Source: a virus (Duplodnaviria > Caudoviricetes). From it: a stretch of 52,931 bases of DNA. This document shows, piece by piece, positions 719-50,051 of this stretch. The stretch covers positions 1-52,931 of the IMG/VR virus record IMGVR_UViG_3300025849_000049. One strand, given 5' to 3'. Under the pieces are notes generated by a model that was not told the DNA's origin, ran no database searches, and saw only the letters and a list, made by a program, of their open reading frames with translations. Within the stretch, counting starts at the first letter, position 1; each line of letters begins with the position of its first letter. The position numbers and the translations under genes are program-made.

Positions 719-2260
719 ATGATTACTGAAGAAACTTTAAACTCAACAGAAACTCTCATGTCTTTTGAGGCCACCCTTGACAAGTATATTAAGTTAAAGT
801 CCAAGGAAGACCTGCTGACCTTTGTTAAGAAGACTGCACCTACACTGGTGACTGACTTCAAGATGGGCAGGCACATTGAGCTACTATGTGACAGGCTGCA
901 GAAGGTAGCCGATGGGGAGCTAAAGAGACTTATGGTCTTTCTACCGCCTCGTAGTTCCAAGAGTTTAATTACCAGTAAAATCTTCCCAGCATGGTATATG
1001 GGCAGAGAACCCAACCACGAGATTATGTCTGTGTCCCACAGTGACCAGCTTGCCAGTGATTTTGGACGTAGCGTGAGGGACATTGTAAATACAGAAGCCT
1101 TTCAGAAAACATTCAAGGGTGTCCAGCTTAGAGCAGATGCCAAGGCTGCAGGCAAGTGGAAGACAAACCAGAATGGTTCTTACTATGCAGCTGGTGTCCG
1201 TTCACAGATTGCTGGACGTGGTGCGCACTTAGCCCTGCTGGATGATGTGATGTCTGAAGAAGATTCTTTCTCAGAGGCAGGCCGTAGGTATATCAAGGAC
1301 TGGTGGCCATCGGGTCTACGTACACGTCTCATGCCGAATGGTGCCATTATTATTATCAACACGAGGTATCACTATGACGACCTGTGTGGTTGGCTATTAA
1401 AGCAAGAGTCAGACATCTCTGGTATCCCTTGGGAAGTAATTAGTATCCCTGCTTGGCTAGATGAAACATCAGCAGAGCTACTAGGGTTGCCTGAAGGTTC
1501 TTCATACTTCCCTGAGTGGAAGCCAGATGAGGTACTGCAGCTGGATGAGCGAGAGATTAGAGCAAGTAACGGGAGTAGATACTGGGATGCGCTATACATG
1601 CAGAACCCGTCACCAGACGAAGGCGGGATTATTAAAAAGAAATGGTTTCAGTGGTGGGAGTACGAAGACCCGCCGCACTGTGAGTTTGTTATCCAGACGT
1701 ATGACACAGCCTTCTCTACTAAGAAGACGGCTGACTACAGTGTCATCCAGACCTGGGGCATCTTTCACCAAGCAGAGCGTGACGAGTATGGCGGTGAGTA
1801 CACCATCGCAAACCTTATCCTTCTCGGAAATGTTAAGGAAAGGTTTGAATATCCCGACCTGCGCAGAACGGCACAATACTTATACCAGAAGCACCGCCCT
1901 GATGTTTGCATCATCGAGAAGAAAGCCTCTGGTCAGTCGCTGTTGCAGGACATGAGACTTGCTGGTCTGCCAGTGCTGGACTATCTGCCTGACAGGGACA
2001 AGGTGTCTCGTGTCTATGCTGCAACGCCTCTTATGGAATCGGGTCGTGTCTACATCCCGAAGGGTAAGGAGTGGGCGAAGGATTTATTTGACGAAGCACT
2101 AGCCTTTCCCAATGGCGCACACGATGACCAAGTCGATGCAATGACTATGGCCATCCACTACATGCGTGACTCTTGGCATGTGTCTCACGACGAAGACCCA
2201 AGCTGGGAAGACGATTATAATCCAAGAAGACAAAAGAGGGTTGGATACTGGCGTACTTAA
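719..2260 (+). CDS. terL: Terminase large subunit
   Basis: Walker A-like LPPRSSKS, Walker B LALLDD, nuclease motifs QTYDTAF and HDDQVDA; upstream of portal. Confidence 0.95.
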   Translation: MITEETLNSTETLMSFEATLDKYIKLKSKEDLLTFVKKTAPTLVTDFKMGRHIELLCDRLQKVADGELKRLMVFLPPRSSKSLITSKIFPAWYMGREPNHEIMSVSHSDQLASDFGRSVRDIVNTEAFQKTFKGVQLRADAKAAGKWKTNQNGSYYAAGVRSQIAGRGAHLALLDDVMSEEDSFSEAGRRYIKDWWPSGLRTRLMPNGAIIIINTRYHYDDLCGWLLKQESDISGIPWEVISIPAWLDETSAELLGLPEGSSYFPEWKPDEVLQLDEREIRASNGSRYWDALYMQNPSPDEGGIIKKKWFQWWEYEDPPHCEFVIQTYDTAFSTKKTADYSVIQTWGIFHQAERDEYGGEYTIANLILLGNVKERFEYPDLRRTAQYLYQKHRPDVCIIEKKASGQSLLQDMRLAGLPVLDYLPDRDKVSRVYAATPLMESGRVYIPKGKEWAKDLFDEALAFPNGAHDDQVDAMTMAIHYMRDSWHVSHDEDPSWEDDYNPRRQKRVGYWRT

Positions 2261-17702: not shown

Positions 17703-17731
17703 TTGACAAACAAACAATAAAGGATTATAAT
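17703..17731 (+). promoter_or_regulatory. Consensus sigma70 promoter
   Basis: TTGACA-N17-TATAAT. Confidence 0.85.
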
Positions 17732-17737
17732 AGTAAA

Positions 17738-18085
17738 ATGGATTATAAACTATACGTATCAGGATACATAGAAGAAACACAGCAATTGCTTATTTCTTTT
17801 TCAAGCGACGAAACTGCTAGAGAGGCTATTGATTATCAGTCACTGGCTTTTGATGTGGTTCCTTATGGAGATGTAACAGCACAAGAAGTTATAGATGCTA
17901 TCTCTAAGGTAGCACCTACCGTTTGTGGTGATGTCGTAGTACAAGAAACATATACAGACGACAGTGAAAAGGCACAGGCGCTTAGAGACCTAGTAGGCCA
18001 AGAGTTTACCTATAAAGACTTTGAGATTGCAGGTGTTAGCGGACATCGTCAAGCATCTGAACAAGAAAGCTCGGAGTCTATTTAA
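17738..18085 (+). CDS. Acidic hypothetical protein
   Basis: ORF directly behind the consensus promoter. Confidence 0.7.
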   Translation: MDYKLYVSGYIEETQQLLISFSSDETAREAIDYQSLAFDVVPYGDVTAQEVIDAISKVAPTVCGDVVVQETYTDDSEKAQALRDLVGQEFTYKDFEIAGVSGHRQASEQESSESI

Positions 18086-32152: not shown

Positions 32153-32547
32153 TGTCATTAGAAGATACAGAGCTTAAAATTGGTGGTGTAAATCTAAAGG
32201 GAGTTTGGATTGCAATAGTAGTGTCTATTGCTACTACTATGGCTGGTGGCATCTGGGCTGTGGCTGAGTTCTATGGTCGTATCGAAGCTGTTGAAGAAGC
32301 AGTGTCTGGCAACGGTAAGGCTGCAGAAAAGCTAACAGTGTTGGGGGCAAACCTAGAAACAATTATGGAAAACCAAAAGCAATTACTTGACATGCGTGAC
32401 AGGGTTTCTGAAGTGGAAAAGACTATGGCTGAGTCAGTATTAAAAGTTAACCAAGCCGCTGAAAAGGCGGGACAAGTTAGTAAGGTTCAACGTGAAATAG
32501 ACGACCTGTGGCGTGGTATGGACGCCTTAGCTAATCCTCTTAACTAA
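32152..32547 (+). CDS. Single-TM coiled-coil protein (i-spanin-like topology)
   Basis: WIAIVVSIATTMAGGIWAV followed by coiled coil. Confidence 0.6.
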   Translation: MSLEDTELKIGGVNLKGVWIAIVVSIATTMAGGIWAVAEFYGRIEAVEEAVSGNGKAAEKLTVLGANLETIMENQKQLLDMRDRVSEVEKTMAESVLKVNQAAEKAGQVSKVQREIDDLWRGMDALANPLN

Positions 32548-33565
32548 GAGCTTCCTGCATCATCTCGTCAATCATTGTATCAAAGGTGTACTTAGGTTCC
32601 CATCCTAACACTTCACGTGCCTTGGTAGCATCGCCCAGTAGTAGCTCAACCTCTGCAGGCCGATAGAACTCTGGGTTAATCTTAACCACAGTGTTACCGT
32701 TCTCATCTACACCAATCTCGTCTGGGCCAGGTTCACCCTCCCAGCGTATACGCATGTCTACTGCACGGAAACACTTCTCTACAAGCTCTCTCACGGAGTG
32801 TAGCGCACCTGTAGCTAGTACATAGTCATCGCCCTGCGCCTGCTGGGTCATTAAATACATGCCATACACGTAATCTTTTGCATGTCCCCAGTCACGCTCT
32901 GCATCTAGGTTGCCTAGCTTAATGTGAGGCTGGTTACCCTTGGCAATATTAGCCACACCCTGTACAATCTTCTGCGTAACAAACTCTTTGCCCCGCCACG
33001 GAGACTCGTGGTTAAACAAGATGCCATTGGAAGCGTGTAATCCATAGCTCTCACGGTAGTTCTTAACCATCCAGTAAGCAAACTGCTTGGCTACCCCATA
33101 AGGAGAGCGTGGATAGAAGGGTGTGGTCTCTGATTGTGGTGTTTCTACGACCTTCCCATATAGCTCTGAGGTGGACGCTTGGTAGAATCTGGTATGACTT
33201 TCCATTCCTAGTGTACGAATGCACTCCAGCAGCCTTAATACCCCCATACCGTCTACATCAGACGTGTATTCTGGCATGTCAAAGGAGACACGCACGTGGG
33301 ACTGAGCAGCTAGGTTGTATACCTCGTCAAATATATTTGTATCAAACAGCCGCATGATGCTGCCTGTGTCTGACAGGTCTCCGTAATGTAGGTGTAGGTT
33401 CTTGTTATCCACCAGATGTGCAATGCGTTGTGATGGTTCAGAAGAAGACCGCCGCTGTAGTGCATGTACTTCATACCCTTTGTTAAGTAGTAGCTCTGCT
33501 AGGTAGCCACCATCTTGTCCTGTAATGCCTGTAATGAAGGCAGACTTCTGTCCAAACTTGCTCAT
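32540..33565 (-). CDS. gmd: GDP-mannose 4,6-dehydratase
   Basis: ITGITGQDG, NLAAQSHV, YQASTSELYG, PRSPYGVAK, GILFNHES, RDWGHA. Confidence 0.97.
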   Translation of the reverse strand: MSKFGQKSAFITGITGQDGGYLAELLLNKGYEVHALQRRSSSEPSQRIAHLVDNKNLHLHYGDLSDTGSIMRLFDTNIFDEVYNLAAQSHVRVSFDMPEYTSDVDGMGVLRLLECIRTLGMESHTRFYQASTSELYGKVVETPQSETTPFYPRSPYGVAKQFAYWMVKNYRESYGLHASNGILFNHESPWRGKEFVTQKIVQGVANIAKGNQPHIKLGNLDAERDWGHAKDYVYGMYLMTQQAQGDDYVLATGALHSVRELVEKCFRAVDMRIRWEGEPGPDEIGVDENGNTVVKINPEFYRPAEVELLLGDATKAREVLGWEPKYTFDTMIDEMMQEALS

Positions 33566-33642
33566 TTTCTTTCCTCTATTACGCCCAGTAAAATTGCAAC
33601 AACAATAATCAAGACTCCAATTGCGTAGTTAGTCAGTGACAT
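33562..33642 (-). CDS. Unannotated 26-aa single-TM peptide
   Basis: MSLTNYAIGVLIIVVAILLGVIEERK; ATGA overlap with the gmd start. Confidence 0.55.
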   Translation of the reverse strand: MSLTNYAIGVLIIVVAILLGVIEERK

Positions 33643-34111
33643 CTGTTTCTTCCTCTTCTTTTTCTTCGTACTCTTCTTCAGGCTCTTCTTGGTCTTCGTC
33701 GAAGTCTTCTGGAAAAGTAGCCATAAGAAGTTGATATACTTTTTCCTTACCGATGACTGTCATTGCTGAACAAATACGTGCCTCAAGACCTTCAAGGTCT
33801 TCTGGGTTATTCTCATCTGCGTTGTTACCACGAACACGTGACAATAGCTCCAGTGCTTTCAGAGCGGTAGCTCCGTTGCCATTAACTTTTGCAGCTTCGT
33901 ATTGTTTTTCTAGCTCTGAGATAACATCTACGTCTGTATTGTATTCCGTCTCCAGCTCTTCGAGTCTTTCTTGGATGTCTGCTCTTTTTAAAAGCTCATA
34001 GCCTTGGTTGTATGCAGACTTTTCACTATACCCTGCCTCTTTAGCAGCAGCAGTTGCATTTCTTCCTATGACATAAGAGGCGCAGAATTTCTCGTGCTTC
34101 TCCTTAAGCAT
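33629..34111 (-). CDS. terS: Terminase small subunit-like protein
   Basis: KHEKFCASYV...NATAAAKEAGYSEKSA...GYELL HTH; start moved to ATG 34111 (GAGGAG SD). Confidence 0.8.
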   Translation of the reverse strand: MLKEKHEKFCASYVIGRNATAAAKEAGYSEKSAYNQGYELLKRADIQERLEELETEYNTDVDVISELEKQYEAAKVNGNGATALKALELLSRVRGNNADENNPEDLEGLEARICSAMTVIGKEKVYQLLMATFPEDFDEDQEEPEEEYEEKEEEETDVTD

Positions 34112-36395
34112 TCGTGTACTCCTCAAAGGTTACTACGTTGTTATTGTAGTATCCGCCCTTCCACACAGCCGCTGCCAGTGTATCTTCTCCGTAGAATGAC
34201 AGGCTTAGTGTATAGTCTCTTCTCTCAAAGAGCTTCTCTAGGTCTTGGGCCAGTGCAAGAAGCTCGCCTGTAGTCCAGAACTTTTCTCCGCCAATCTCTA
34301 CATTCATATAGCGTGGGTTACCCATCTCGTCCTTGTCGTCTTTCTTTACATCGCCCTCTGGAACAGAACAATCAAAACCAAAGAGGTGAATGTTCCTATA
34401 TCCCAATAGCTCAAGCAGCCCTAGCGTGCGTGTGGCTGATGCTGTGCCACCACTTACCAAAGAAGAACCAGGTTTAATACCCAACTTAGGGTCCACAACA
34501 AACTTGTCTTCAATGCTTTCATCTCTTAGCGCATCTGTAAAGGCGTGAAAGCCCTTGACATTGTTCGTACGCTCTAGGATGTAATCAACTACGCCCTCAT
34601 CTGTCATGCTGGCAATATAAAAGGTTGTGTCCTTGTTCATATCCTTAAACAAGTCCTTACGCTTTACACCATGTGTGCTGATGCCGTCGATAGAACGTGG
34701 GTCAAGAATCATACAAGCATCAGGTGTAATCCCTTCTTCCAACAAGCGTGGATAGGAGTGCTTGACACACCAGATTTTTGCATTGTATTTCTTTTGTGTT
34801 TTCCTAACCTTATCAAAGTCAATCGTGCCGCCAGAGACAATCATAACGTGGTCATCTGTTGTCTTGTATTGCTTAACCCAATCCCAGTCATCTATCTTGG
34901 CAATGTTTTCGGTCACACTTTTCTTAATGTGTTCGCTTGGCATTGAGTCTTTAGGCTTAACAATAATAGGAACACGCAACAACTCTGGGGGTATTTTCTT
35001 GTAGCCTTCTTTAATACAAACAGCAAGGTGAACAATACCACCAAAAGCAGTACCGTCTTCAGAAGGCAAGATGTGTTTTGTTTTACTGTCAATAGCAGAA
35101 AAAGTTTTAATAATACCTGTGTGTTCTTCTGGTAATTTTTTGTCTTTTTGTGTTGAATAATAGTCGTCGAAGACAACAATAGGACAGTCCTTAACAAAGC
35201 TGTAATCACTAGCCACCGTATCTAAAGAGTGGCCGCCATCAATAAAAACAAAGTCCACATCGTCATAGCGCAGACCCTTCATTGTTTCTTTTGTATCTCC
35301 TGCATACAGTTTAAAGGTAAACGTCTTTCCCGCTGCGGCTGAACGCTCTTTAAATTGTTCTAGCCTTTCTGTTACAGCTGTCAACGCATTGTGTCCCTTT
35401 ACATTCAACTCAACTGCATCAGTCTCTTCAGTAGCCTGTTCAAACAAATCAAACCCACGATAGTGTACTGTGTCTACGCTTTCAAAGGCAGTCAACGCCA
35501 TCTCGATTGCACGACCACCATTCCATGTGCCAGTTTCCACAATGGTAAAGGTGTCAATGTCTTCTGAATAATGACGAACCAATGCTGCTAGTTTCTTATA
35601 TCGCTGAGGCCCTTGCTTGGAGTTTGCTGGCGTGTCCTTTGATAGCTCAGGATTAGCTGAGGCTTCAAACTTACGCTTGCCTTTGTTATGTGTAAAGTAA
35701 TCGTCAAGCATACACTGGTCAAACACAGAGAACCCACGCACACCCTCTGATAGGTTGCGTGCTTTCATTCCATGAGCCTCATAAATCTTAAGCAGGCGGG
35801 TGAATACAAAAGCATCTGTCCACTCACGATACGCAAACACTTCGTCTGTGTCATACGCACCACGCAGGTCAACCAGCAATGAGCAGGCATTGTGCATACT
35901 TAGATTAAAGCCAATGAAGCCTGTCTCGCTATAGTCAATATCAATACGACCAAGGTGTACAATGTCAACCTCTGGAATTAGAAGCTTAGCTGCATCTTCT
36001 GCCTTAAACATTTTCTTTGTAAGCGTATCGGCATCAAGCCATACCATCCAGTCTTTGCTGTCTGCATCAAGAAGCTCAAAGAACAGGTCACTCATTGCAT
36101 ACACCTTGTGACAGAAGCGAACAGCATCCATACGATAGTTATAAGGTGCTTCACCGAAGCGTCCGTTCTTATCGCTATTGCGTGTAATAAAATCAGTACG
36201 TGCCTGAATGTTCTCTAGGTGACGGTACTCAATAAAGTCTGCTTGTGGTAGGCCATCTGATTTACCATCATAGCCTTCAAGATAAACATGTAGCTTGAAG
36301 TCCGTTGGCTTCCATTTATTGGCAACAGAGTCAAGCATCTTAAGGCCATAGACCCCTTCGTGTTGTTTGTGAAAGCTCGTTACAAAATTATACAT
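34104..36395 (-). CDS. Three-domain protein: glycosyltransferase + SAM methyltransferase + Maf/DUF115-like domain
   Basis: WLDAD; VETGTWNGG, FIDGGH, VFDDY; GITPD...LDP and GGT...LGYRNIHLFGFD. Confidence 0.75.
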   Translation of the reverse strand: MYNFVTSFHKQHEGVYGLKMLDSVANKWKPTDFKLHVYLEGYDGKSDGLPQADFIEYRHLENIQARTDFITRNSDKNGRFGEAPYNYRMDAVRFCHKVYAMSDLFFELLDADSKDWMVWLDADTLTKKMFKAEDAAKLLIPEVDIVHLGRIDIDYSETGFIGFNLSMHNACSLLVDLRGAYDTDEVFAYREWTDAFVFTRLLKIYEAHGMKARNLSEGVRGFSVFDQCMLDDYFTHNKGKRKFEASANPELSKDTPANSKQGPQRYKKLAALVRHYSEDIDTFTIVETGTWNGGRAIEMALTAFESVDTVHYRGFDLFEQATEETDAVELNVKGHNALTAVTERLEQFKERSAAAGKTFTFKLYAGDTKETMKGLRYDDVDFVFIDGGHSLDTVASDYSFVKDCPIVVFDDYYSTQKDKKLPEEHTGIIKTFSAIDSKTKHILPSEDGTAFGGIVHLAVCIKEGYKKIPPELLRVPIIVKPKDSMPSEHIKKSVTENIAKIDDWDWVKQYKTTDDHVMIVSGGTIDFDKVRKTQKKYNAKIWCVKHSYPRLLEEGITPDACMILDPRSIDGISTHGVKRKDLFKDMNKDTTFYIASMTDEGVVDYILERTNNVKGFHAFTDALRDESIEDKFVVDPKLGIKPGSSLVSGGTASATRTLGLLELLGYRNIHLFGFDCSVPEGDVKKDDKDEMGNPRYMNVEIGGEKFWTTGELLALAQDLEKLFERRDYTLSLSFYGEDTLAAAVWKGGYYNNNVVTFEEYTNA

Positions 36396-37162
36396 TACAT
36401 GTTCTCCAGAATAAGTTGTGTTGTTATTTCTTGTTCAGCCTCTAGCCACTCCTCAACATAGACTTCTTCAACGGGGCGGCTAGGCTTCCACTTGTTAAAC
36501 CAAGGACCGCCTGTAGTAAAGTGTACGTTCTTAGCTTCAAGCTGCGGGTCGCTCTGCCCATCAAGCCAGTTCCATTCGGGGTGGATAGGCCCAATCTCGT
36601 CGTCGTCTAGCCAGCCAAACGAATGGAGCCACCCACCAGCTCTAAGGTTTACATCGTCTACTGTAAGCTTTAGATTTGATGGGTGACTGCAATCGAATAA
36701 CATAAAGCTAGACCAGTTCTTTCTGTAGTAGCTTGTCTGTGCTACGCCGTCCATCTTTACCTTGCTGTTTGGTTCATAAGGCTTGTGCTGTACGCACTGT
36801 ACTGCATACTGTGTGTTCTTCCCGTACACCTTAAAGATGCCTGCAATGTCTGCACGTACAAACATGTCGGCATCCATAAACAAGGCTAGACCATCGTACT
36901 GATTTAATGCAGGTACGAGGAAGCGGGTGAAGGTGAAGTCTGTGCTGAAGGGTCTACCATCGAAGGCGTCATAGCGTTGATGCGGTTCGTGCGGGTAGAC
37001 AACAGAAGCCCTGCGATACATACCATTGCGGCGTAGTGCAGGTTCCATCAAGGGAATGATGTCGTACTCTTTGTTATATTTTTTAATTGAATGTGCCAGA
37101 ACCTCTACGGCTCGATGGTCACGTCCATCATATCCAATGTAAATTACTGGTCGTTTGTTCAT
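36395..37162 (-). CDS. GT-A fold glycosyltransferase
   Basis: IYIGYD, STDFTFTRFLVP, FMDAD, NWSS, WNWL, HFT.GGPW; start moved to ATG 37162 (GGAGA SD). Confidence 0.85.
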   Translation of the reverse strand: MNKRPVIYIGYDGRDHRAVEVLAHSIKKYNKEYDIIPLMEPALRRNGMYRRASVVYPHEPHQRYDAFDGRPFSTDFTFTRFLVPALNQYDGLALFMDADMFVRADIAGIFKVYGKNTQYAVQCVQHKPYEPNSKVKMDGVAQTSYYRKNWSSFMLFDCSHPSNLKLTVDDVNLRAGGWLHSFGWLDDDEIGPIHPEWNWLDGQSDPQLEAKNVHFTTGGPWFNKWKPSRPVEEVYVEEWLEAEQEITTQLILENM

Positions 37163-37180
37163 TGTGTCTCCATATAAGTA

Positions 37181-37232
37181 ATGGTGGTGAGCCAAGGGAT
37201 TGAGAGAGAAAGGAGGTTCAGCCCACCACCAT
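37181..37232 (-). promoter_or_regulatory. Leader stem-loop with a pyrimidine-rich anti-SD loop
   Basis: ATGGTGGTGGGC pairs with GCTCACCACCAT; loop contains ACCTCCTTTCT. Confidence 0.7.
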
Positions 37233-37236
37233 GTAT

Positions 37237-37265
37237 ATTATAATAAATTACACAACAAATGTCAA
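37237..37265 (-). promoter_or_regulatory. Consensus sigma70 promoter for the glycan/terS operon
   Basis: TTGACA-N17-TATAAT on the minus strand. Confidence 0.85.
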
Positions 37266-37268
37266 GGA

Positions 37269-37460
37269 TTATTTATGCCACATACCCTTGAGTCTTTTCT
37301 TGGCTGCAAGGTTGGCTTGCTTCTTGTCTTCGTGGGACATGACCGACCAGTTCTCAATGTCACGTCCTGTTCTGCCGCAGTGTATGCAAGTGTCGTGTGT
37401 GTTAGACAACTCGCAGCTTTCTACTTTGGCTTCTGCGCTGGCCTTACAGGGGCTACTCAT
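37269..37460 (-). CDS. DUF1289-like Cys-rich protein
   Basis: SPC...C...CIHCGRT..DIENW. Confidence 0.7.
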   Translation of the reverse strand: MSSPCKASAEAKVESCELSNTHDTCIHCGRTGRDIENWSVMSHEDKKQANLAAKKRLKGMWHK

Positions 37461-37678
37461 AATATATAATGCTCCAACTGTGTGTAACCACCTATGTGCT
37501 TACCGTTAACTTTAATCTGCGGTACTGTTTTCTCGTCAGGGAACAGCTCTTTAAATTCTTTAGCCGTAACCTCTGTGCCGATGCCGTAGTAACCGTAGGG
37601 AATCTTTCGAACCCTACAGAATACTACGGCGTCTCTACAATACTTGCAGCCTTTCTGCCCGTATATCTCTACCCTCAT
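37457..37678 (-). CDS. grx: Glutaredoxin
   Basis: CKYC active site, TVPQI, IGGY. Confidence 0.9.
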   Translation of the reverse strand: MRVEIYGQKGCKYCRDAVVFCRVRKIPYGYYGIGTEVTAKEFKELFPDEKTVPQIKVNGKHIGGYTQLEHYIL

Positions 37679-39588
37679 GTCAGGTCAACAACCTCGCAAC
37701 CATCCGAACTACAGGCCAATGTTTGTGCGCCTGATGTGTTGTCTTCCATCTCGTACTCAGAGAGCTTAGCCCAATCAATCTTCTTGGGCATCTTAGCAGC
37801 AGCTTCCTTGTAGGTAGCCTTGTCACAGTCCTGATAGGGAGCTTGTGCATAGGTGTGGTCGCTGTGTGGCAGAAAGGATACACCAGAGCAGATGTCAAAG
37901 TTATCGAACACCCAAGCACCTACGTTCATCCACTCCTCGTCTCGCACCGTAATGGTAACGGATGGCTTATGCTCACACCACTCCAATGCGTAGGTCTTCC
38001 ATAGCTCCAGCTGCTCGATGGCAGTCATGTCGTTACGTGTTACCGCATTGTCAGGTGACTTGGTCGGGAAGCTAAACACCGTGGTGCTGTCAGGCTTCAT
38101 AACACAAGGCTCAGCTGGGATGCCTGCGTCTGTAAGGAACTGTGTTAGCGGGTCTTTGTTATCACCCCGTACAGTTCGGATATAATATTCGCTATGACGT
38201 GCATGAATGCCAGAAGCGCTATCAACAAGCTGCGACACAGTACCTGAAGGCTTAACACAAGTGATGGCCGCAGATGCACTAATTCCAAACTGCTCAGCAT
38301 AATCCCTGTTTGTTTGTACAGCAGTGTCACGAAGCTTGTTAAGTACTTTCTTAGATGGGTTGCTAGTAATTTCATTGTCCATAATACCTGTCAGGCTTAC
38401 ACCCAACAGCCTTTCTTCTTCTGTGTTCTTACGCCAGATAGGACGAAGATACGGCATATCTGTAAACGTAGATTGAATTGTTCCAAGTATAGAGGCAAGA
38501 CGTACTTTGTTTGCCAGTGTTTTCTCAGTGTCGGTTGGCCGCACCACAACCTCAGTCAGGTTGCAGAACTGATAAGGCCGCAGGATAATCTCACTGCACG
38601 GGTTAGTCCCCCACTCCTTGCCTGTTTCACGGCGACCATTGCGCTTGACGTGTTCGTCTGCAGCGATTCGGCTAAAGATACCACGCTCACCAGACTTGGA
38701 CTCGACCAAGGACAACCACTCACGCATGAATGTTTCCATATCAGGCTTGTCGGTGTAGGCTACAGAGTTATTAGCCAAGGCACGTTGCCCTTCGTTTTCC
38801 CACCATTGACCAGACTTAGCGTGACGCATACGGTCATCCGACAGGTTAGACAAACTAATCATAGCGGAGCGGCGTACACCACCTACTACAACTACCTCGC
38901 CAATCTTACACATGATGTCGTGGCACTCAACGCTGTTAAGCTTACGCCCTGCTGCGCCTTTGAACTTGGCTACAACAAAGTTGAACAGGTCGTTCAGGGG
39001 GTCAGGCCCAGAGGCACGGCCACCAAATGTCTTGAGGCGTTCACCTGCTGCACGAATCTTGGACAAGTCCCACTTAGGCACGTCCCCTGTGTACAGGCCG
39101 CTGACTACTTTGCGTAGTGCCTTAGCCCAGCCTTCCTTGCTGTCTTGCACAACGATAAGGTCTTCGCTATCTCTGATGTCTTCTGGTACTACAGGGAGCT
39201 TGCTGATGGCCTGACGCTCAACAGAGAAGCCTACACCTGTACCACACAGCAAGATAAACATGGCCTCGTCAAAGGCACGAGGGTGGTCAACAGGCAGGTA
39301 ACTACAGTTGTATACACATGTGTTGTCACGCTCAGCAGCTGGGCCTGCAGTCATCAAGGCTCGCATAGAAGGCATGACCTCTAGGTTAAGGATGGCATCC
39401 TCAAGCTCGTTAAGCGTCTTGCCCTCTAGGTCTGATGGACGTACGATGTTGTCAATGAAACGGCCTACGGTTTCACCCCAGGTTTCCCTGCGTCCCTCGT
39501 CATCTAGCCAACGGGCATATCGTGACGTTGCAATGAATGTCTGGTAGTCCGATGGTAGGTAATTAGTCAATGTATTTTGGTTCGTCAT
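37675..39588 (-). CDS. nrdJ: Class II (cobalamin-dependent) ribonucleotide reductase
   Basis: PSMRAL, GGVRRSA, TNPCSE, CNLTE, VKPSGT, C-terminal Cys pair; no beta subunit gene seen. Confidence 0.92.
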   Translation of the reverse strand: MTNQNTLTNYLPSDYQTFIATSRYARWLDDEGRRETWGETVGRFIDNIVRPSDLEGKTLNELEDAILNLEVMPSMRALMTAGPAAERDNTCVYNCSYLPVDHPRAFDEAMFILLCGTGVGFSVERQAISKLPVVPEDIRDSEDLIVVQDSKEGWAKALRKVVSGLYTGDVPKWDLSKIRAAGERLKTFGGRASGPDPLNDLFNFVVAKFKGAAGRKLNSVECHDIMCKIGEVVVVGGVRRSAMISLSNLSDDRMRHAKSGQWWENEGQRALANNSVAYTDKPDMETFMREWLSLVESKSGERGIFSRIAADEHVKRNGRRETGKEWGTNPCSEIILRPYQFCNLTEVVVRPTDTEKTLANKVRLASILGTIQSTFTDMPYLRPIWRKNTEEERLLGVSLTGIMDNEITSNPSKKVLNKLRDTAVQTNRDYAEQFGISASAAITCVKPSGTVSQLVDSASGIHARHSEYYIRTVRGDNKDPLTQFLTDAGIPAEPCVMKPDSTTVFSFPTKSPDNAVTRNDMTAIEQLELWKTYALEWCEHKPSVTITVRDEEWMNVGAWVFDNFDICSGVSFLPHSDHTYAQAPYQDCDKATYKEAAAKMPKKIDWAKLSEYEMEDNTSGAQTLACSSDGCEVVDLT

Positions 39589-42933: not shown

Positions 42934-42950
42934 GTTGTTACCCCCTGATG

Positions 42951-43024
42951 CGAACGCAGCAGGATTTGAACCTGCGACCTACAGCTTAGAAGGCTGTTGC
43001 TCTATCCAGCTGAGCTATGCGTCC
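42951..43024 (-). tRNA. tRNA-Arg (anticodon UCU)
   Basis: GGACGCA/TGCGTTC acceptor, GCTC/GAGC D arm, ACAGC-CTTCTAA-GCTGT, GCAGG-TTCAAAT-CCTGC; CCA not encoded. Confidence 0.95.
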
Positions 43025-43891: not shown

Positions 43892-45544
43892 TTAGTGGGT
43901 GTCAGACCAAGATAAGCCAGTCTTATACTCACAATCTAGGGGGCAATTAACCTTGAGGGATTCCTCTGTAAGCTTCATTGCCTCCTTAGTAATAGCACCG
44001 AAGGCTTCTTCCTGTCCCTTACGTACCTCGAATTGGTATTCGTCATGTACACTTGCAACAAGGTTGAAGTCCAGCTTTGCTTTAGTGGCTAGGATAATAA
44101 TAAACTTAAGCCATTCCTTACATACAATTGCACCAGCACCTTGCAATAGCAGGTTGAGTGCAGCATGTTTGTTTCGTATGGTAAGGACACGACCATCCAA
44201 GCCAATGAGATAACCTCTGCCAGACAACTTGTCTACCTTAGAGCGTAGTGCTTTCAAGGCAGGCATGTTGTTTAAGAAGTTATCAATCAGACGCTGACCA
44301 TCCTTGGCTGTGCCATTGACGACCTGTCCAATCTTACCAGCACCAGCACCATACAAGAAGGCATAGATAAATGTCTTTGCGTTGTCCCTTGTAGGTAGCC
44401 CTGCTGCTGTTTGGTTAGCGGTATGAACATCACCCTCTACAACTTCCTTGGTGTAGGCTTCGTCGTTCATGTAGTGTGCTAACATCCGTAGCTCAAGTCC
44501 TGATGCGTCAGTACCCAGCAGTGTGTAGTCGTCACTAGATACTTTCCACAATGCCCTGCACTCCTTACCATAGGGTGAGTAGACAGCAGGAACCTGTGCC
44601 ATGTTGGGTGACGAGTGAGACATACGACCAGTGATTGTACCCAGCGTCATAACCCTGCCGTGTACCCTGTCGTTCTCGTCTGCTACAGCAATCCAAGATT
44701 TAATCTGGGACACACGCTTCTCAAGCGTAAGGTATGTAGCAATCAACTGAGCTTGGGGGATGTCGATTTTCTCAAGAATCTCTTCACCGACAATCGGCTG
44801 TCCCTTCTCAGTAAACTTCTTAGGCTTCCAACCCAAGTTCATAAGGCGTTGTGCAATCTGTTGGCGTGAGCCTGGGTTGAACACAGTAACCTTATCCTTT
44901 AATCTTTTACCTGTCTTCTCAGATACTCTAATCTCTGTAATAGGTTTAAAGACTTCGTGAAGTTCTTCTCTAAGTTTGTGAGACTTATCTGATAGCTTTG
45001 CAACTAGCAGGCTTGCCTCCTTCACGTCAAGTGTGAAGCCGTTCTGTTCTTGCTTGTCAACCACTGCACGAATCTGATGCTCAAGCTTAATGCTACGAGC
45101 AGAGAAGCCCTTGAGTGTAGGGACAAGAGCCTTATACACCTTAGCTGTTAGGTCTACATCCCTGATGCAATACTTAAGCATCTCGTCTGTGTAACCTGAG
45201 AAGTCGTGGAAGTCTATCTTCCCGAAGCCAAGTGTCTTACCCCAAGCGTCAAGTGAATGACCACCGTCTCGCACTGGGCTGGCAAGCTGCGACATGATAA
45301 GTGTGTCACGTATCTTAGCCAGTGGTATCTCCACACCAAGCAATCTCTTGAGGACAGGGGCATCAAAGGACACTCCGTTGTGCATGATAACAATGTCTGC
45401 ACTCTCAATAAGATTCTTGGCGTGGTGAACATGGTCTGGTTTGTAAGTGTAGATGCGGTCTTCGTCGATGTCCTTAGCTACAATACAATAAATAGTAGTA
45501 GCATCTAGGCTGTCTGTTTCAATGTCTACTACTAATCTTTTCAT
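43892..45544 (-). CDS. polA: Family A DNA polymerase with 3'-5' exonuclease
   Basis: DIET, HNGVSFD, DASGLELR, RDNAKTFIYAFLYG, VHDE. Confidence 0.96.
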   Translation of the reverse strand: MKRLVVDIETDSLDATTIYCIVAKDIDEDRIYTYKPDHVHHAKNLIESADIVIMHNGVSFDAPVLKRLLGVEIPLAKIRDTLIMSQLASPVRDGGHSLDAWGKTLGFGKIDFHDFSGYTDEMLKYCIRDVDLTAKVYKALVPTLKGFSARSIKLEHQIRAVVDKQEQNGFTLDVKEASLLVAKLSDKSHKLREELHEVFKPITEIRVSEKTGKRLKDKVTVFNPGSRQQIAQRLMNLGWKPKKFTEKGQPIVGEEILEKIDIPQAQLIATYLTLEKRVSQIKSWIAVADENDRVHGRVMTLGTITGRMSHSSPNMAQVPAVYSPYGKECRALWKVSSDDYTLLGTDASGLELRMLAHYMNDEAYTKEVVEGDVHTANQTAAGLPTRDNAKTFIYAFLYGAGAGKIGQVVNGTAKDGQRLIDNFLNNMPALKALRSKVDKLSGRGYLIGLDGRVLTIRNKHAALNLLLQGAGAIVCKEWLKFIIILATKAKLDFNLVASVHDEYQFEVRKGQEEAFGAITKEAMKLTEESLKVNCPLDCEYKTGLSWSDTH

Positions 45545-46005
45545 ACTTCAATTAACTCCGCTTCTTGATAAGGTACGTGGAAGAACTGTTCACCCTGTAG
45601 GATGCGTCCACCTTGTGCTTCTTTAACTACTGACTTAGATGCTGTGTCACCACTGATACGCCACGCTGCTTTCATGTCAGGTCGTATGATGTAGAAGTGT
45701 AAGACACCCTTGTCTGCTACTGCATTAATAAGTTTATGTTTGCGGTAAGGTATTCGTATCTCTTTCCAATTAGGATTCCAATCACCTTTCCATCCATACT
45801 TTATCTCCGCCTCGTTGAAGAACTTATTATAATCCAACTCGCTTTTGATGTCAACAGAAAAATCTTCTGTCGTGTCTAAAATTGTATGGCCTTGTGTGGA
45901 TAAGTAATCAACCACCCATTGCTTGGCCTTGTTGTCTGAGCGTTCATATCTCTCTCGTGAGAAGGGAATGTTTACGCTGCCTACGATTGGTTTAAGTTGT
46001 TCCAT
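45541..46005 (-). CDS. Hypothetical protein, possibly PD-(D/E)xK fold
   Basis: VD...EAEIK pattern; IRIPYRK. Confidence 0.6.
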   Translation of the reverse strand: MEQLKPIVGSVNIPFSRERYERSDNKAKQWVVDYLSTQGHTILDTTEDFSVDIKSELDYNKFFNEAEIKYGWKGDWNPNWKEIRIPYRKHKLINAVADKGVLHFYIIRPDMKAAWRISGDTASKSVVKEAQGGRILQGEQFFHVPYQEAELIEV

Positions 46006-49804: not shown

Positions 49805-50051
49805 TGTTCACCACTAATTGCAGGTTGGGTTGGTGGATAACAGCTTCCTTTTGGGTCATGTCAACCACGTTGATTGTGTAAGGGTCGAACTCTACGTCAA
49901 GGACATACTCGTCCTCTGTTAAGTCTCGCACCATCACATACTCAAGCCAGTCAAGTGGCATTGCTTCTTCGCCAATCAAAGGCCACCAAGGTTGTGTGCC
50001 TACGTCTTCTAGGTCTGTGTCAATTACAAATGTTACTTCATAGCGAGCCAT
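49746..50051 (-). CDS. Acidic hypothetical protein
   Basis: AAGGAG SD. Confidence 0.65.
   Translation of the reverse strand: MARYEVTFVIDTDLEDVGTQPWWPLIGEEAMPLDWLEYVMVRDLTEDEYVLDVEFDPYTINVVDMTQKEAVIHQPNLQLVVNNDQSKQEDEGEPDEAPPQQ

What the first reader, a model, noticed from the sequence alone, without database searches (positions are those of the whole stretch)
37162..37236. Leader stem-loop displaying a mimic of the 16S rRNA 3' end
Seen on the minus strand right at the expected TSS: a stem of at least 12 bp enclosing ACCUCCUUUCUCUCUCAAUCCC. The stretch GGCUGAACCUCCUUUCU resembles the 16S tail GGCUGGAUCACCUCCUUUCU. The loop is complementary to SD sequences, including the GGAGA just downstream. 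Alphaproteobacterial sRNAs with CCUCC loops are known to block SDs. Inference: a cis switch delaying translation of the glycan/terS operon, or a trans-acting anti-SD RNA.
Basis: partly seen in the sequence, partly recalled or inferred. Interest (0 to 1): 0.7.

Follow-up and report, generated by a model that had tools for sequence, protein, structure and literature searches.

The report
Phage mRNA leader hairpin, ribosome-tail loop
An uncultured marine phage and its relatives begin one operon with a conserved RNA hairpin whose open loop carries the same letters as the ribosome's mRNA-docking tail, which probably tunes the stability and translation of that message, though nothing has been measured.

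Summary
On the minus strand, a perfect TTGACA-N17-TATAAT promoter (37265-37237) is followed after 4 nt by a 15-bp helix (37232-37218 / 37195-37181, three G·U pairs). It encloses a 22-nt G-free loop beginning ACCUCCUUUCU. Then come 9 nt, GGAGA, and the ATG (37162) of a GT8-like gene heading a glycan/terS/gmd operon.

It is not chance. 40 of 80 related phage loci carry promoter plus hairpin at the same place. There are six sequence clades with different stems: 10 of 15 pairs show compensatory changes, and 94% of cells are paired. (A/G)CCUCCUU sits at the 5' edge of the loop in five of the six clades; the sixth keeps only a UCCUUUCUCUCUC tract. There is no Rfam match, and one copy per genome.

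My best reading (0.45) is a 5'-terminal leader hairpin that protects the mRNA 5' end, with an anti-SD-like loop that transiently pairs with the operon's own SD. The rivals are a 5'UTR-derived trans-acting anti-SD small RNA, an S1/standby platform, and a plain stabiliser.

No start site, RNA species or effect was observed. This scan has noted similar anti-SD-loop hairpins in other phages (31 unchecked notes).

The parts
37260..37265 (-). -35 hexamer TTGACA
   Evidence: Kept as TTGACA or TTGACT in all hairpin-bearing relatives.
37237..37242 (-). -10 hexamer TATAAT, with a 17-nt spacer from the -35
   Evidence: 12 of 12 consensus. Invariant in relatives.
37218..37232 (-). 5' arm of the helix (AUGGUGGUGGGCUGA). 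The expected +1 (5-9 nt after the -10, from general promoter knowledge) falls on its first bases.
   Evidence: Fold; covariation.
37196..37217 (-). 22-nt loop with no G and 86% pyrimidine. Its first 11 nt, ACCUCCUUUCU, equal the 16S rRNA tail; a (CU)n tract follows.
   Evidence: Motif conservation. 16S tail.
37181..37195 (-). 3' arm of the helix (UUGGCUCACCACCAU)
37172..37180 (-). A/U-rich 9-nt linker (UACUUAUAU). It varies among relatives.
37167..37171 (-). Shine-Dalgarno GGAGA of the first cistron
   Evidence: GGAG is invariant in relatives.
36395..37162 (-). First cistron: a 255-aa GT8-like glycosyltransferase (phrog_28018). It is followed by the 763-aa methyltransferase/MptE-like gene (34104-36395), terS (33629-34126) and gmd (32540-33565).

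Best explanation
The element is a conserved cis-encoded RNA that forms the very 5' end of the mRNA of the phage's glycosylation/terS operon. Host sigma-70 RNA polymerase starts at a consensus promoter, and the first 50-56 nt fold at once into a 10-15-bp helix with 0-3 unpaired 5' nucleotides.

Inferred step 1: the base-paired 5' end shields the transcript from 5'-end-dependent decay (RppH and RNase E type), as known 5'-terminal stem-loops do.

Inferred step 2: the 22-30-nt pyrimidine loop exposes (A/G)CCUCCUU(U)C, the same letters as the 16S tail. It pairs reversibly with the strong GGAG Shine-Dalgarno 3-13 nt downstream of the helix. The 30S subunit must then compete with an internal look-alike of its own tail. 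This sets (damps or times) translation of the first cistron from a very strong promoter.

Shown here: the structure, its position relative to the promoter, its conservation, and the conservation of the loop motif.

Not shown: the start site, any effect on stability, any loop-SD contact.
For: - Helix: 15 bp, -22 kcal/mol, z = -2.75.
- Promoter: perfect consensus ending 4 nt before the helix.
- Spread: 40 of the 80 loci found through the downstream GT protein carry promoter plus hairpin. 38 are covariance-model hits on the sense strand and 2 more were seen by eye.
- Position: in all six clades the helix begins 1-10 nt after the -10.
- Covariation: stems differ between clades but stay paired. On a MAFFT alignment of 13 sequences, 96.9% of cells pair, 6 of 16 pairs change on both sides, and 0 of 500 shuffles reach this. 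On a model-fitted alignment of 12 sequences from 5 clades, 94.2% pair, 10 of 15 pairs change on both sides (28 cells), 0 of 500 shuffles reach the covariation score, and slid controls reach at most 61%.
- Arm swapping: cognate arms give the best energy in every row and column.
- Strand: G·U pairs, and 100 versus about 14-24 bits for sense versus antisense model hits, put the structure on the sense RNA.
- Not coding: loop length differs by 1-2 nt among close relatives.
- Loop motif: (A/G)CCUCCUU sits at the 5' edge of the loop in clades A, B, B', D, E and F.
- Within-clade variation falls in the promoter spacer, the initial transcribed bases, the linker and the 3' end of the loop. The arms, the loop motif and GGAG are invariant or nearly so.
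- The first gene after the hairpin differs: GT in some loci, one of two unrelated small ORFs in others. The upstream gene differs too. The hairpin therefore belongs to the promoter/operon start, not to one gene.
- A strong SD follows in every clade.
- Known background: 5'-terminal stem-loops stabilise mRNA, and the B. subtilis RppH needs at least two unpaired 5' nucleotides (review PMC3997798, passages and reference list).
Against: - No transcript 5' end was seen. The four RNA-library runs are kept as contigs only and cannot show starts. Two contigs bridge promoter and hairpin (37049-37680 and 37165-37457), so read-through from upstream, or DNA in the library, is equally possible.
- Loop-SD pairing in the window is only 4-5 bp (-6.4 kcal/mol). 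That is weaker than the pairing the same 11-mer could make with several other RBSs of the phage, down to -12.7.
- Clade E has 3 nt between helix and SD, too short for a classical H-type pseudoknot across a 14-bp helix (the geometry is my inference).
- Clade C has no CCUCC, only GUCCUUUCUCUCUC.
- Any SD pairs with this motif by definition, so loop-SD covariation cannot be tested.
- A plain stabiliser would not need a conserved loop, and a pyrimidine loop could equally be a protein site.
- 39 of the 80 loci lack the element. 11 of these carry a different 5' hairpin with an A-rich loop. This argues that the helix is the general part and the loop motif an add-on of unknown role.
Confidence: 0.45

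Rival explanations
1. Trans-acting, 5'UTR-derived anti-SD small RNA. Termination or RNase E cutting just after the helix releases an abundant RNA of about 50-60 nt. Its loop masks Shine-Dalgarno sites of other host or phage-early mRNAs. Read-through transcripts still express the operon.
For: - A consensus promoter directly followed by a stable hairpin is the layout of phage 5'UTR premature-termination RNAs. In six Pseudomonas phages, 42 terminators lie in 5'UTRs; at phiKZ T102 more than 90% of transcripts end as an RNA of about 71 nt (PMC10914365, passages).
- Clade F has a U-rich tract right after the helix (6 unique sequences).
- The A/U-rich linker after a helix resembles an RNase E site (inference).
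- Sequence-specific conservation of the loop is what a seed region shows.
- C-rich anti-SD loops are an established sRNA design in Alphaproteobacteria (PMC4615179).
- The 11-mer pairs better with other RBSs of the phage, for example the RNR gene at -12.7 and the ORF at 50051 at -12.1 kcal/mol, than with its own.
Against: - The window has no U tract, and the terminator scan does not flag the site. Clade E has none either.
- A loop of 22-30 nt is far longer than terminator loops.
- RNA-library contigs bridge the hairpin in 2 of 4 runs.
- No extended target was found in the window beyond generic SD-like purine runs.
- The phage itself relies on SDs: 32 of 47 ATG ORFs, against 8.6% background. A general SD blocker would hit its own genes and would have to outcompete ribosomes.
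Confidence: 0.2
2. Protein or ribosome landing pad. The unstructured pyrimidine loop, held 14-24 nt upstream of the start codon, binds ribosomal protein S1 or another pyrimidine-binding protein. It acts as a standby site or translational enhancer. On this reading the likeness to the 16S tail reflects a shared protein preference rather than RNA-RNA pairing.
For: - All six clades keep a G-poor, 80-90% pyrimidine loop of 22-30 nt, even clade C, which lacks CCUCC.
- The helix ends 13-23 nt before the AUG. By general knowledge of 30S footprints, that lies within the upstream part of the footprint near the platform and S1 (inference).
- The (CU)n length drifts by slippage, which tolerates a composition-based site.
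- That S1 prefers pyrimidine-rich single strands and was reported to bind the 16S 3' end is recalled, not checked in any call.
Against: - The exact heptamer CCUCCUU at a fixed loop position in five clades is more than a composition requirement.
- Known S1 enhancers are mostly A/U-rich (recalled).
- No binding data exist.
Confidence: 0.15
3. Plain 5' stabiliser or insulator hairpin. Only the helix matters. The loop is conserved through shared descent and mutational bias of a CT microsatellite, and its likeness to the 16S tail is coincidental.
For: - The exact 11-mer alone is only marginally unexpected: 1 match against 0.06 expected, with 6 of 100 shuffles matching.
- CCTCCTT occurs 5 times in the window against 5.5 expected.
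- In a C/U-only loop, CCUCC arises easily.
- A different A-rich-loop 5' hairpin does the same job in 11 more distant loci.
- Clade C lacks CCUCC.
Against: Stems have turned over almost completely between clades, while the motif stays at the same loop position. Within clades the loop's 5' half is as invariant as the arms and the SD, whereas the spacer, linker and loop 3' end vary.
Confidence: 0.12
4. Terminator or attenuator that ends the upstream RNR-glutaredoxin-DUF1289 transcripts, placed after the next promoter to save space.
For: - No other terminator-like site lies between the DUF1289 stop (37269) and the hairpin.
- The stem is GC-rich.
- Clade F has a U tract.
Against: - There is no U tract in the window or in clade E, and the loop is long.
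- RNA-library contigs cross it in 2 of 4 runs.
- The element travels with the promoter and the downstream operon, while the upstream gene varies.
Confidence: 0.05

Closest known systems
5'-terminal stabilising stem-loops of bacterial and phage mRNAs (ompA 5' UTR hairpin and papA: Emory, Bouvet and Belasco 1992, as listed in review PMC3997798; the T7 gene 10 leader is recalled)
   Same: A helix at or within a few nucleotides of +1 of a strongly expressed mRNA, followed by a single-stranded leader and a strong SD. The position relative to the promoter is conserved in six clades.
   Different: Those loops carry no conserved motif. Here a 22-30-nt pyrimidine loop with (A/G)CCUCCUU is conserved. 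No half-life data exist for this element.
Cuckoo / alpha-r14 / CcsR (RSs0680a-d) sRNAs of Rhizobiales and Rhodobacterales (PMC4615179, passages)
   Same: Hairpins of 24-50 nt whose loops display an anti-SD-like C-rich motif while the stems vary freely. They occur in the bacterial groups that phages with this kind of RNR gene infect.
   Different: Cuckoo RNAs have 2-4 adjacent modules and the motif CCUCCUCCC. They are stand-alone or co-transcribed sRNAs of bacteria. Here there is one hairpin, the motif is CCUCCUU(U)CU, it forms an mRNA leader, and it is phage-encoded. No Rfam hit appears even at E up to 10.
5'UTR-derived short RNAs of virulent Pseudomonas phages made by premature termination (for example phiKZ T102 upstream of PHIKZ221; PMC10914365, passages)
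   Same: Promoter, then a hairpin within the 5'UTR, then genes. Two outcomes are possible, a short RNA or read-through. The elements are conserved within a phage genus.
   Different: Those are mapped transcripts with bona fide terminators, and no anti-SD loop is reported in the passages read. Table S7 of that paper could not be opened. Here no transcript is mapped, and a U tract exists only in clade F.
SD-sequestering pseudoknots of translational riboswitches and autoregulated leaders (preQ1-II, SAM-II, rpsO); recalled, no call
   Same: A hairpin loop pairs with the downstream SD to gate initiation.
   Different: Those have short tuned loops and linkers and bind a ligand or protein. Here the helix is 10-15 bp, the linker is 3-13 nt, and no ligand pocket is evident.
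The 3' tail of 16S rRNA itself (helix 45 end, then GAUCACCUCCUUUCU; PMC6943124, PMC6288834)
   Same: 11 of 11 letters (ACCUCCUUUCU) in the window. As in 16S, the motif is single-stranded and follows directly after a helix strand ending in GGCU (clades A, B, D, F).
   Different: The GAUC of the tail is missing (GGCUGA-ACC against GGCUGGAUCACC). The motif is closed into a loop rather than being a free 3' end. The host and its 16S are unknown.

Membership tests
Cuckoo / alpha-r14 sRNA family | 2 to 4 adjacent hairpin modules (PMC4615179) | tested here: not met
   There is one hairpin between the promoter and the SD. The model finds one site per genome.
Cuckoo / alpha-r14 sRNA family | Loop motif CCUCCUCCC in every module | tested here: not met
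   The loops read ACCUCCUUUCU, ACCUCCUUCUCU, GCCUCCUUUCC or GUCCUUUCU.
Cuckoo / alpha-r14 sRNA family | Hairpin of 24-50 nt with a loop of 9-27 nt and variable stems | tested here: inconclusive
   The hairpins are 47-56 nt and the loops 22-30 nt, with co-varying stems. They lie at or just beyond the upper limits.
Any Rfam 15 family | Covariance-model match at the gathering score | tested here: not met
   The whole window yields only a tRNA. At 37100-37300 with E up to 10 there are only three chance-level hits of 13-14 bits.
5'-terminal mRNA-stabilising stem-loop (functional class) | The helix begins within a few nucleotides of the transcript's 5' end | tested here: inconclusive
   Met by prediction only. 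The helix begins 5 nt after a 12-of-12 -10 hexamer in the window and 1-10 nt after it in the relatives. No 5' end was mapped.
5'-terminal mRNA-stabilising stem-loop (functional class) | Removing the helix shortens mRNA half-life | not testable with these tools
   This needs reporter or infection experiments.
Intrinsic terminator / 5'UTR attenuator | GC-rich stem, short loop (3-8 nt), then a U tract | tested here: not met
   The stem criterion is met. The loop is 22 nt. The tail AUUACUUAUAU is not flagged by the terminator scan. A U tract is present only in clade F.
Mimic of the 16S rRNA 3' tail | Sequence identity with the tail CACCUCCUUUCU, presented single-stranded | tested here: met
   11 of 11 letters match, and they are unpaired in both the MFE and the centroid fold. 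The host's own 16S is unknown.
Mimic of the 16S rRNA 3' tail | The motif is conserved in relatives | tested here: met
   CCUCCUU is kept in five of six clades, but not in clade C.

The most novel reading that the evidence does not exclude
The hairpin is a phage-made decoy of the ribosome's 16S 3' tail: a helix end followed by single-stranded ACCUCCUUUCU. It is transcribed in bulk from a consensus promoter and released from the leader. It would then compete with 30S subunits for strong Shine-Dalgarno sites, so that translation is re-allocated during infection. That would be an RNA counterpart of T4 RegA/RegB early-mRNA shut-off. Alternatively, it would titrate a host factor or defence nuclease that recognises the 16S tail. 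In slow-growing marine hosts with few ribosomes such a decoy could be stoichiometrically meaningful.
Probability: 0.12. Interest if true: 0.85.

Novelty: new variant of a known kind. Interest (0 to 1): 0.5.

Why it matters
If the loop acts through SD pairing, this would be a compact natural module: a consensus promoter, a 5' protective helix, and a built-in anti-SD. It would set the output of a phage operon after transcription.

It would also add phage mRNA leaders to the places where the C-rich-loop anti-SD design is used. That design is known so far from bacterial sRNAs.

The element is a new covariation-supported RNA family from an abundant, uncultured marine phage lineage. The window's DNA is held almost completely by runs of at least nine studies. 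It is small enough to test directly with reporters.

Similar unchecked notes from other phages in this scan suggest the design may be recurrent. A single experimental case would therefore be informative for many others.

Tried and rejected
- **Rfam.** The gathering scan of the whole window and an E-value scan up to 10 of 37100-37300 match no family.
- **Exact 48-nt hairpin in viral contigs.** 0 stretches. The window's own record may be left out of that scan.
- **Extended trans target inside the phage.** The 18-mer complement with up to 3 mismatches finds only the site itself. An RNAduplex scan of both strands shows only generic purine-rich sites of about -18 to -22 kcal/mol in coding regions. 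This was rejected as evidence of a specific target.
- **RNA libraries.** All four runs are contigs, so no starts, ends, strand or level can be read. X15 has a contig ending inside the loop (37050-37210) and no cover over 37211-37379. I draw nothing from that.
- **MAFFT alignments A1 and A4.** They put the 3' arms of clades C, E and F out of register. I replaced them with A5 (clades A-D only, 13 of the 17 unique hairpins then in hand) and with the model-fitted A7 (12 sequences; 9 further unique variants were left out to keep antisense hits from entering). A7 is fitted to the structure and leans towards it.
- **Covariation within clades A, B and B' alone.** Not significant: 98% paired, but 102 of 500 shuffles reach the score.
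- **Pattern scan for new clades.** 18 belong to the clades already known. 60 are unrelated, mostly terminator stems containing CCUCC or the antisense of an RBS. No new clade was found.
- **Model R1 on whole related records.** It finds one site in 3 of 5 records. It misses the two clade-C records G001 and G002, where the hairpin is visible by eye. That is a limit of sensitivity, not an absence.
- **Cultured relatives.** No cultured phage has the GT gene above 39% identity (19 records), so no laboratory system is at hand. terL is only about 40% identical to Pelagibacter phages HTVC023P and HTVC027P. The RNR DNA is 72-73% identical to Roseobacter CRP phages. The host stays unknown, so the host's own 16S tail could not be compared.
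- **Small ORFs behind the hairpin in clades D, E and F.** No Pfam or PHROG family.
- **Literature.** I found no paper describing a phage mRNA leader hairpin that displays the 16S tail. In one search, 202 papers hold at least 4 of 5 terms; 15 were listed and none is relevant by title or abstract. In one search, 20 papers hold the terms and 12 were listed. In one search, 232 papers hold the terms and 15 were listed. This is a limited search of open-access text. The supplements were closed, among them Table S7 of PMC10914365 with its 29 phage ncRNA candidates.
- **Considered and rejected without a test.** A lambda nut/boxB or HK022 put-like antitermination site: there is no short GNRA-like loop and no paired hairpins. 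A Rho-loading site: a 22-30-nt C-rich loop is much shorter than known rut sites. A DNA-level cruciform or origin: the G·U pairs would become A·C mismatches on the other strand, and antisense model scores are far lower.
Full report
**What is there.** The window is an IMG/VR virus record of 52.9 kb, 93% complete by CheckV and 44% G+C. Its minus-strand arm carries nucleotide-metabolism genes: ThyX, a class II RNR, glutaredoxin and a DUF1289 protein. These are followed by a GT8-like glycosyltransferase (phrog_28018), a 763-aa methyltransferase/MptE-like fusion, a small terminase subunit and GDP-mannose 4,6-dehydratase.

Between the DUF1289 stop (37269) and the GT start (37162) the minus strand reads as follows:
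- TTGACA, 17 nt, TATAAT, ending at 37237
- AUAC
- a 15-nt arm (37232-37218)
- the 22-nt loop ACCUCCUUUCUCUCUCAAUCCC (37217-37196)
- the complementary arm (37195-37181)
- UACUUAUAU
- GGAGA (37171-37167), CACA, AUG

RNAfold gives the 15-bp helix, with 3 G·U pairs, at -22 kcal/mol and z = -2.75; 1 of 200 shuffles folds as well. The promoter is a 12-of-12 consensus. It is one of three perfect sites in the window against 0.04 expected. The other two perfect promoters have no such hairpin. A scan for helices of at least 9 bp closing a 12-35-nt loop that is at least 80% pyrimidine finds only this site plus one weak 9-bp case.

**Is the likeness to the 16S tail real?** The quoted tail is printed for Sinorhizobium meliloti as the start of a 39-mer RNA oligo (GGCUGGAUCACCUCCUUUCU..., PMC6943124, oligonucleotide table). 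RNA-seq-defined tails GAUCACCUCCUUUCU are listed for several bacteria (PMC6288834). The loop's first 11 letters are identical to it. In the window alone, the exact 11-mer occurs once against 0.06 expected, with a match in 6 of 100 shuffles. The 7-mer CCTCCTT is not enriched, at 5 matches against 5.5 expected. On the window alone the match would be only suggestive.

**Relatives.** I searched IMG/VR with the GT protein and obtained 80 loci at 52-98% identity.
- A covariance model built from 11 unique close leaders (R1) hits the sense strand of 38 loci. Two more clade-C loci show the element by eye. That makes 40 of 80.
- One locus holds no upstream DNA, and 39 lack the element.
- The carriers fall into six sequence clades: A (the window's clade), B, B', C, D, E and F.
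- In every clade, a TTGACA or TTGACT, 17 nt, TATAAT promoter directly follows the stop of a variable upstream gene.
- The helix begins 1-10 nt after the -10, and a strong SD (GGAG, AGGAG, AAGGAG or AGGAGG) follows 3-13 nt after the helix.
- In clades D and F and in one B-like locus, a conserved 55-62-aa ORF of no known family sits between the hairpin and the GT gene. In clade E an unrelated 61-aa ORF sits there.

The hairpin therefore belongs to the promoter and operon start, not to one gene. A promoter-plus-CCTCCTT pattern scan of IMG/VR returned 78 unique leaders. Of these, 18 belong to the same clades and 60 are unrelated. The family appears confined to this phage lineage. R1 finds one site in the window and one in each of three related records.

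**Structure is under selection.** The stems differ between clades, for example GGUGGUGGGCUGA/UUGGCUCACCACC, GUGGUAGUAGGC/GCCUACUACCAU, UGACGGUGGGGAGU/ACUCCCUGCCGUCA, GUGGUAGCUGGCU/GGUCAGCUACCAC and GCGGUGGGCA/UGUCCACCGC.
- On a MAFFT alignment that is in register for clades A-D (13 sequences), 96.9% of cells pair. 6 of 16 pairs change on both sides, and 0 of 500 shuffles reach the covariation score.
- On a model-fitted alignment of 12 sequences from five clades, 94.2% pair. 10 of 15 pairs change on both sides (28 cells). 0 of 500 shuffles reach the score, and slid controls give at most 61%. This alignment leans towards the structure by construction, and the clades are few, so these are not probabilities.
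- Swapping arms between clades costs 1-19 kcal/mol, and the cognate pair is best in every row and column.
- G·U pairs and much lower antisense model scores place the structure on the sense RNA.
- Loop lengths differ by 1-2 nt among close relatives, which excludes a coding role.
- Within clades A, B and B' alone, covariation is not significant.

**The loop is conserved too.** The letters directly after the 5' arm are:

| Clade | Letters after the 5' arm |
|---|---|
| A, B | (G/A)A-ACCUCCUUUCU |
| B' | GA-ACCUCCUUCUCU |
| D | UUGU-ACCUCCUUUCU |
| E | ACCUCCUUCUCU |
| F | GU-GCCUCCUUUCC |
| C | GAGUUCUUCAGUCCUUUCUCUCUC, without CCUCC |

All loops are 22-30 nt, contain 0-3 G and are 80-90% pyrimidine, with a (CU)n run whose length drifts. 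Within clades, variable positions lie in the promoter spacer, the first transcribed bases, the linker, the post-SD spacer and the 3' end of the loop.

**What it most likely does.** The helix sits where +1 is expected (5-9 nt after the -10, from general promoter knowledge). The RNA would therefore begin base-paired, with 0-3 free nucleotides. That is the geometry of 5'-terminal stabilising stem-loops. RppH-type enzymes need unpaired 5' nucleotides (review PMC3997798, passages and reference list to Emory, Bouvet and Belasco 1992).

More distant relatives support the helix as the general part. Eleven of the 80 loci carry a different 5' hairpin with an A-rich loop after their own promoter, kept by a compensatory one-pair indel.

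The conserved loop motif calls for a sequence-specific partner. The nearest candidate is the operon's own SD, so I favour a cis anti-SD that competes with the 30S subunit. Against this:
- Pairing in the window is only 4-5 bp, at -6.4 kcal/mol.
- Clade E has a 3-nt linker.
- Clade C lacks CCUCC.
- SD-loop covariation is untestable, because every SD pairs with this motif.

**Rivals.**
- *A released small RNA acting in trans.* This is plausible. Phage 5'UTR terminators that yield abundant short RNAs with read-through are documented (PMC10914365). Clade F has a U tract after the helix. The 11-mer pairs better with other RBSs of the phage than with its own. However, the window has no U tract and the loop is long. 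RNA-library contigs cross the hairpin in 2 of 4 runs. The phage depends on SDs itself: 32 of 47 ORFs against 8.6% background.
- *An S1/standby platform.* This fits the composition and the position but not the exact motif.
- *A plain stabiliser with an incidentally conserved loop.* This fits clade C and the marginal single-window statistics but not the pattern of within-clade variation.
- *A terminator for the upstream operon.* This is the least likely.

**Comparison with the known.** The element is not in Rfam. It fails two defining features of the cuckoo/alpha-r14 family, namely the number of modules and the CCUCCUCCC motif. It shares that family's logic of variable stems presenting an anti-SD-like loop. 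It resembles 5'-terminal stabilisers in position and phage 5'UTR-derived RNAs in layout.

I found no paper describing a phage leader that displays the 16S tail (searches; open-access text only, supplements closed). This scan's own earlier, unchecked notes list 31 findings of anti-SD-loop hairpins in other phages. Among them are promoter-proximal leader hairpins kept by compensatory changes. The design was thus seen before by this scan on other DNA. Those notes are leads, not evidence.

**Verdict.** This is a real, conserved, covariation-supported RNA element. I class it as a new variant of known kinds. Its mechanism is inferred and not shown. No transcript start, short RNA species, half-life or translation effect was observed. 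The host is unknown: the RNR is nearest to Roseobacter/HMO-2011-type phages and terL to Pelagibacter phages. I score interest at 0.5.

Noticed in passing
window 17703-17740 (+): A second perfect TTGACA-N17-TATAAT promoter has an ATG only 7 nt after the -10. The first gene of that three-gene cassette is therefore probably leaderless. No hairpin follows it.
   Followed up: partly
window 45826-45854 (-): A third perfect consensus promoter lies inside the 154-aa ORF 45541-46005. It is followed by GAGGCGGAGAUAAAGUAUG and could be an internal promoter for the 550-aa gene downstream. It has no 5' hairpin.
   Followed up: no
L036:2192-2377, L037:2591-2758, L035:2838-3002, L010 from 2838: A conserved 55-62-aa ORF (shared pattern FTF..E.N.I...LGE.PAK) is the first gene behind the hairpin in clades D and F and in one B-like locus. 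It has no Pfam or PHROG family. The window lacks it at this position.
   Followed up: partly
L059-L063, L065-L068, L070, L071 (about 45 nt upstream of the GT start): More distant relatives (53-54% GT identity) have their own promoter followed by a different 5' hairpin (GGAAAUA...UAUUUCC or GGAAUA...UAUUCC). Its loop is A-rich and there is no obvious SD. The two forms differ by a compensatory one-pair indel.
   Followed up: partly
promoter-upstream bases in L005-L012, L013-L029, L031-L035: An A tract, AAAAAA(C/G)TT(C/G/T), directly precedes the -35 in clades B, B', C, D and E. It looks like an UP element. The window's clade has TAAATAATCC instead.
   Followed up: no
window 719-2260 (+) and 37675-39588 (-): The genome looks mosaic. 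The large terminase is only about 40% identical to Pelagibacter phages HTVC023P and HTVC027P. The RNR DNA is 72-73% identical to Roseobacter CRP phages of the HMO-2011 type.
   Followed up: partly
window 42950-43024 (-): A single tRNA-Arg(UCU). It is the only Rfam gathering-level hit in the window.
   Followed up: no
L039:2809-2830 and other clade F loci: The U run after the helix varies in length among clade F variants (6 to 10 U). This looks like homopolymer slippage in a terminator-like tract.
   Followed up: no
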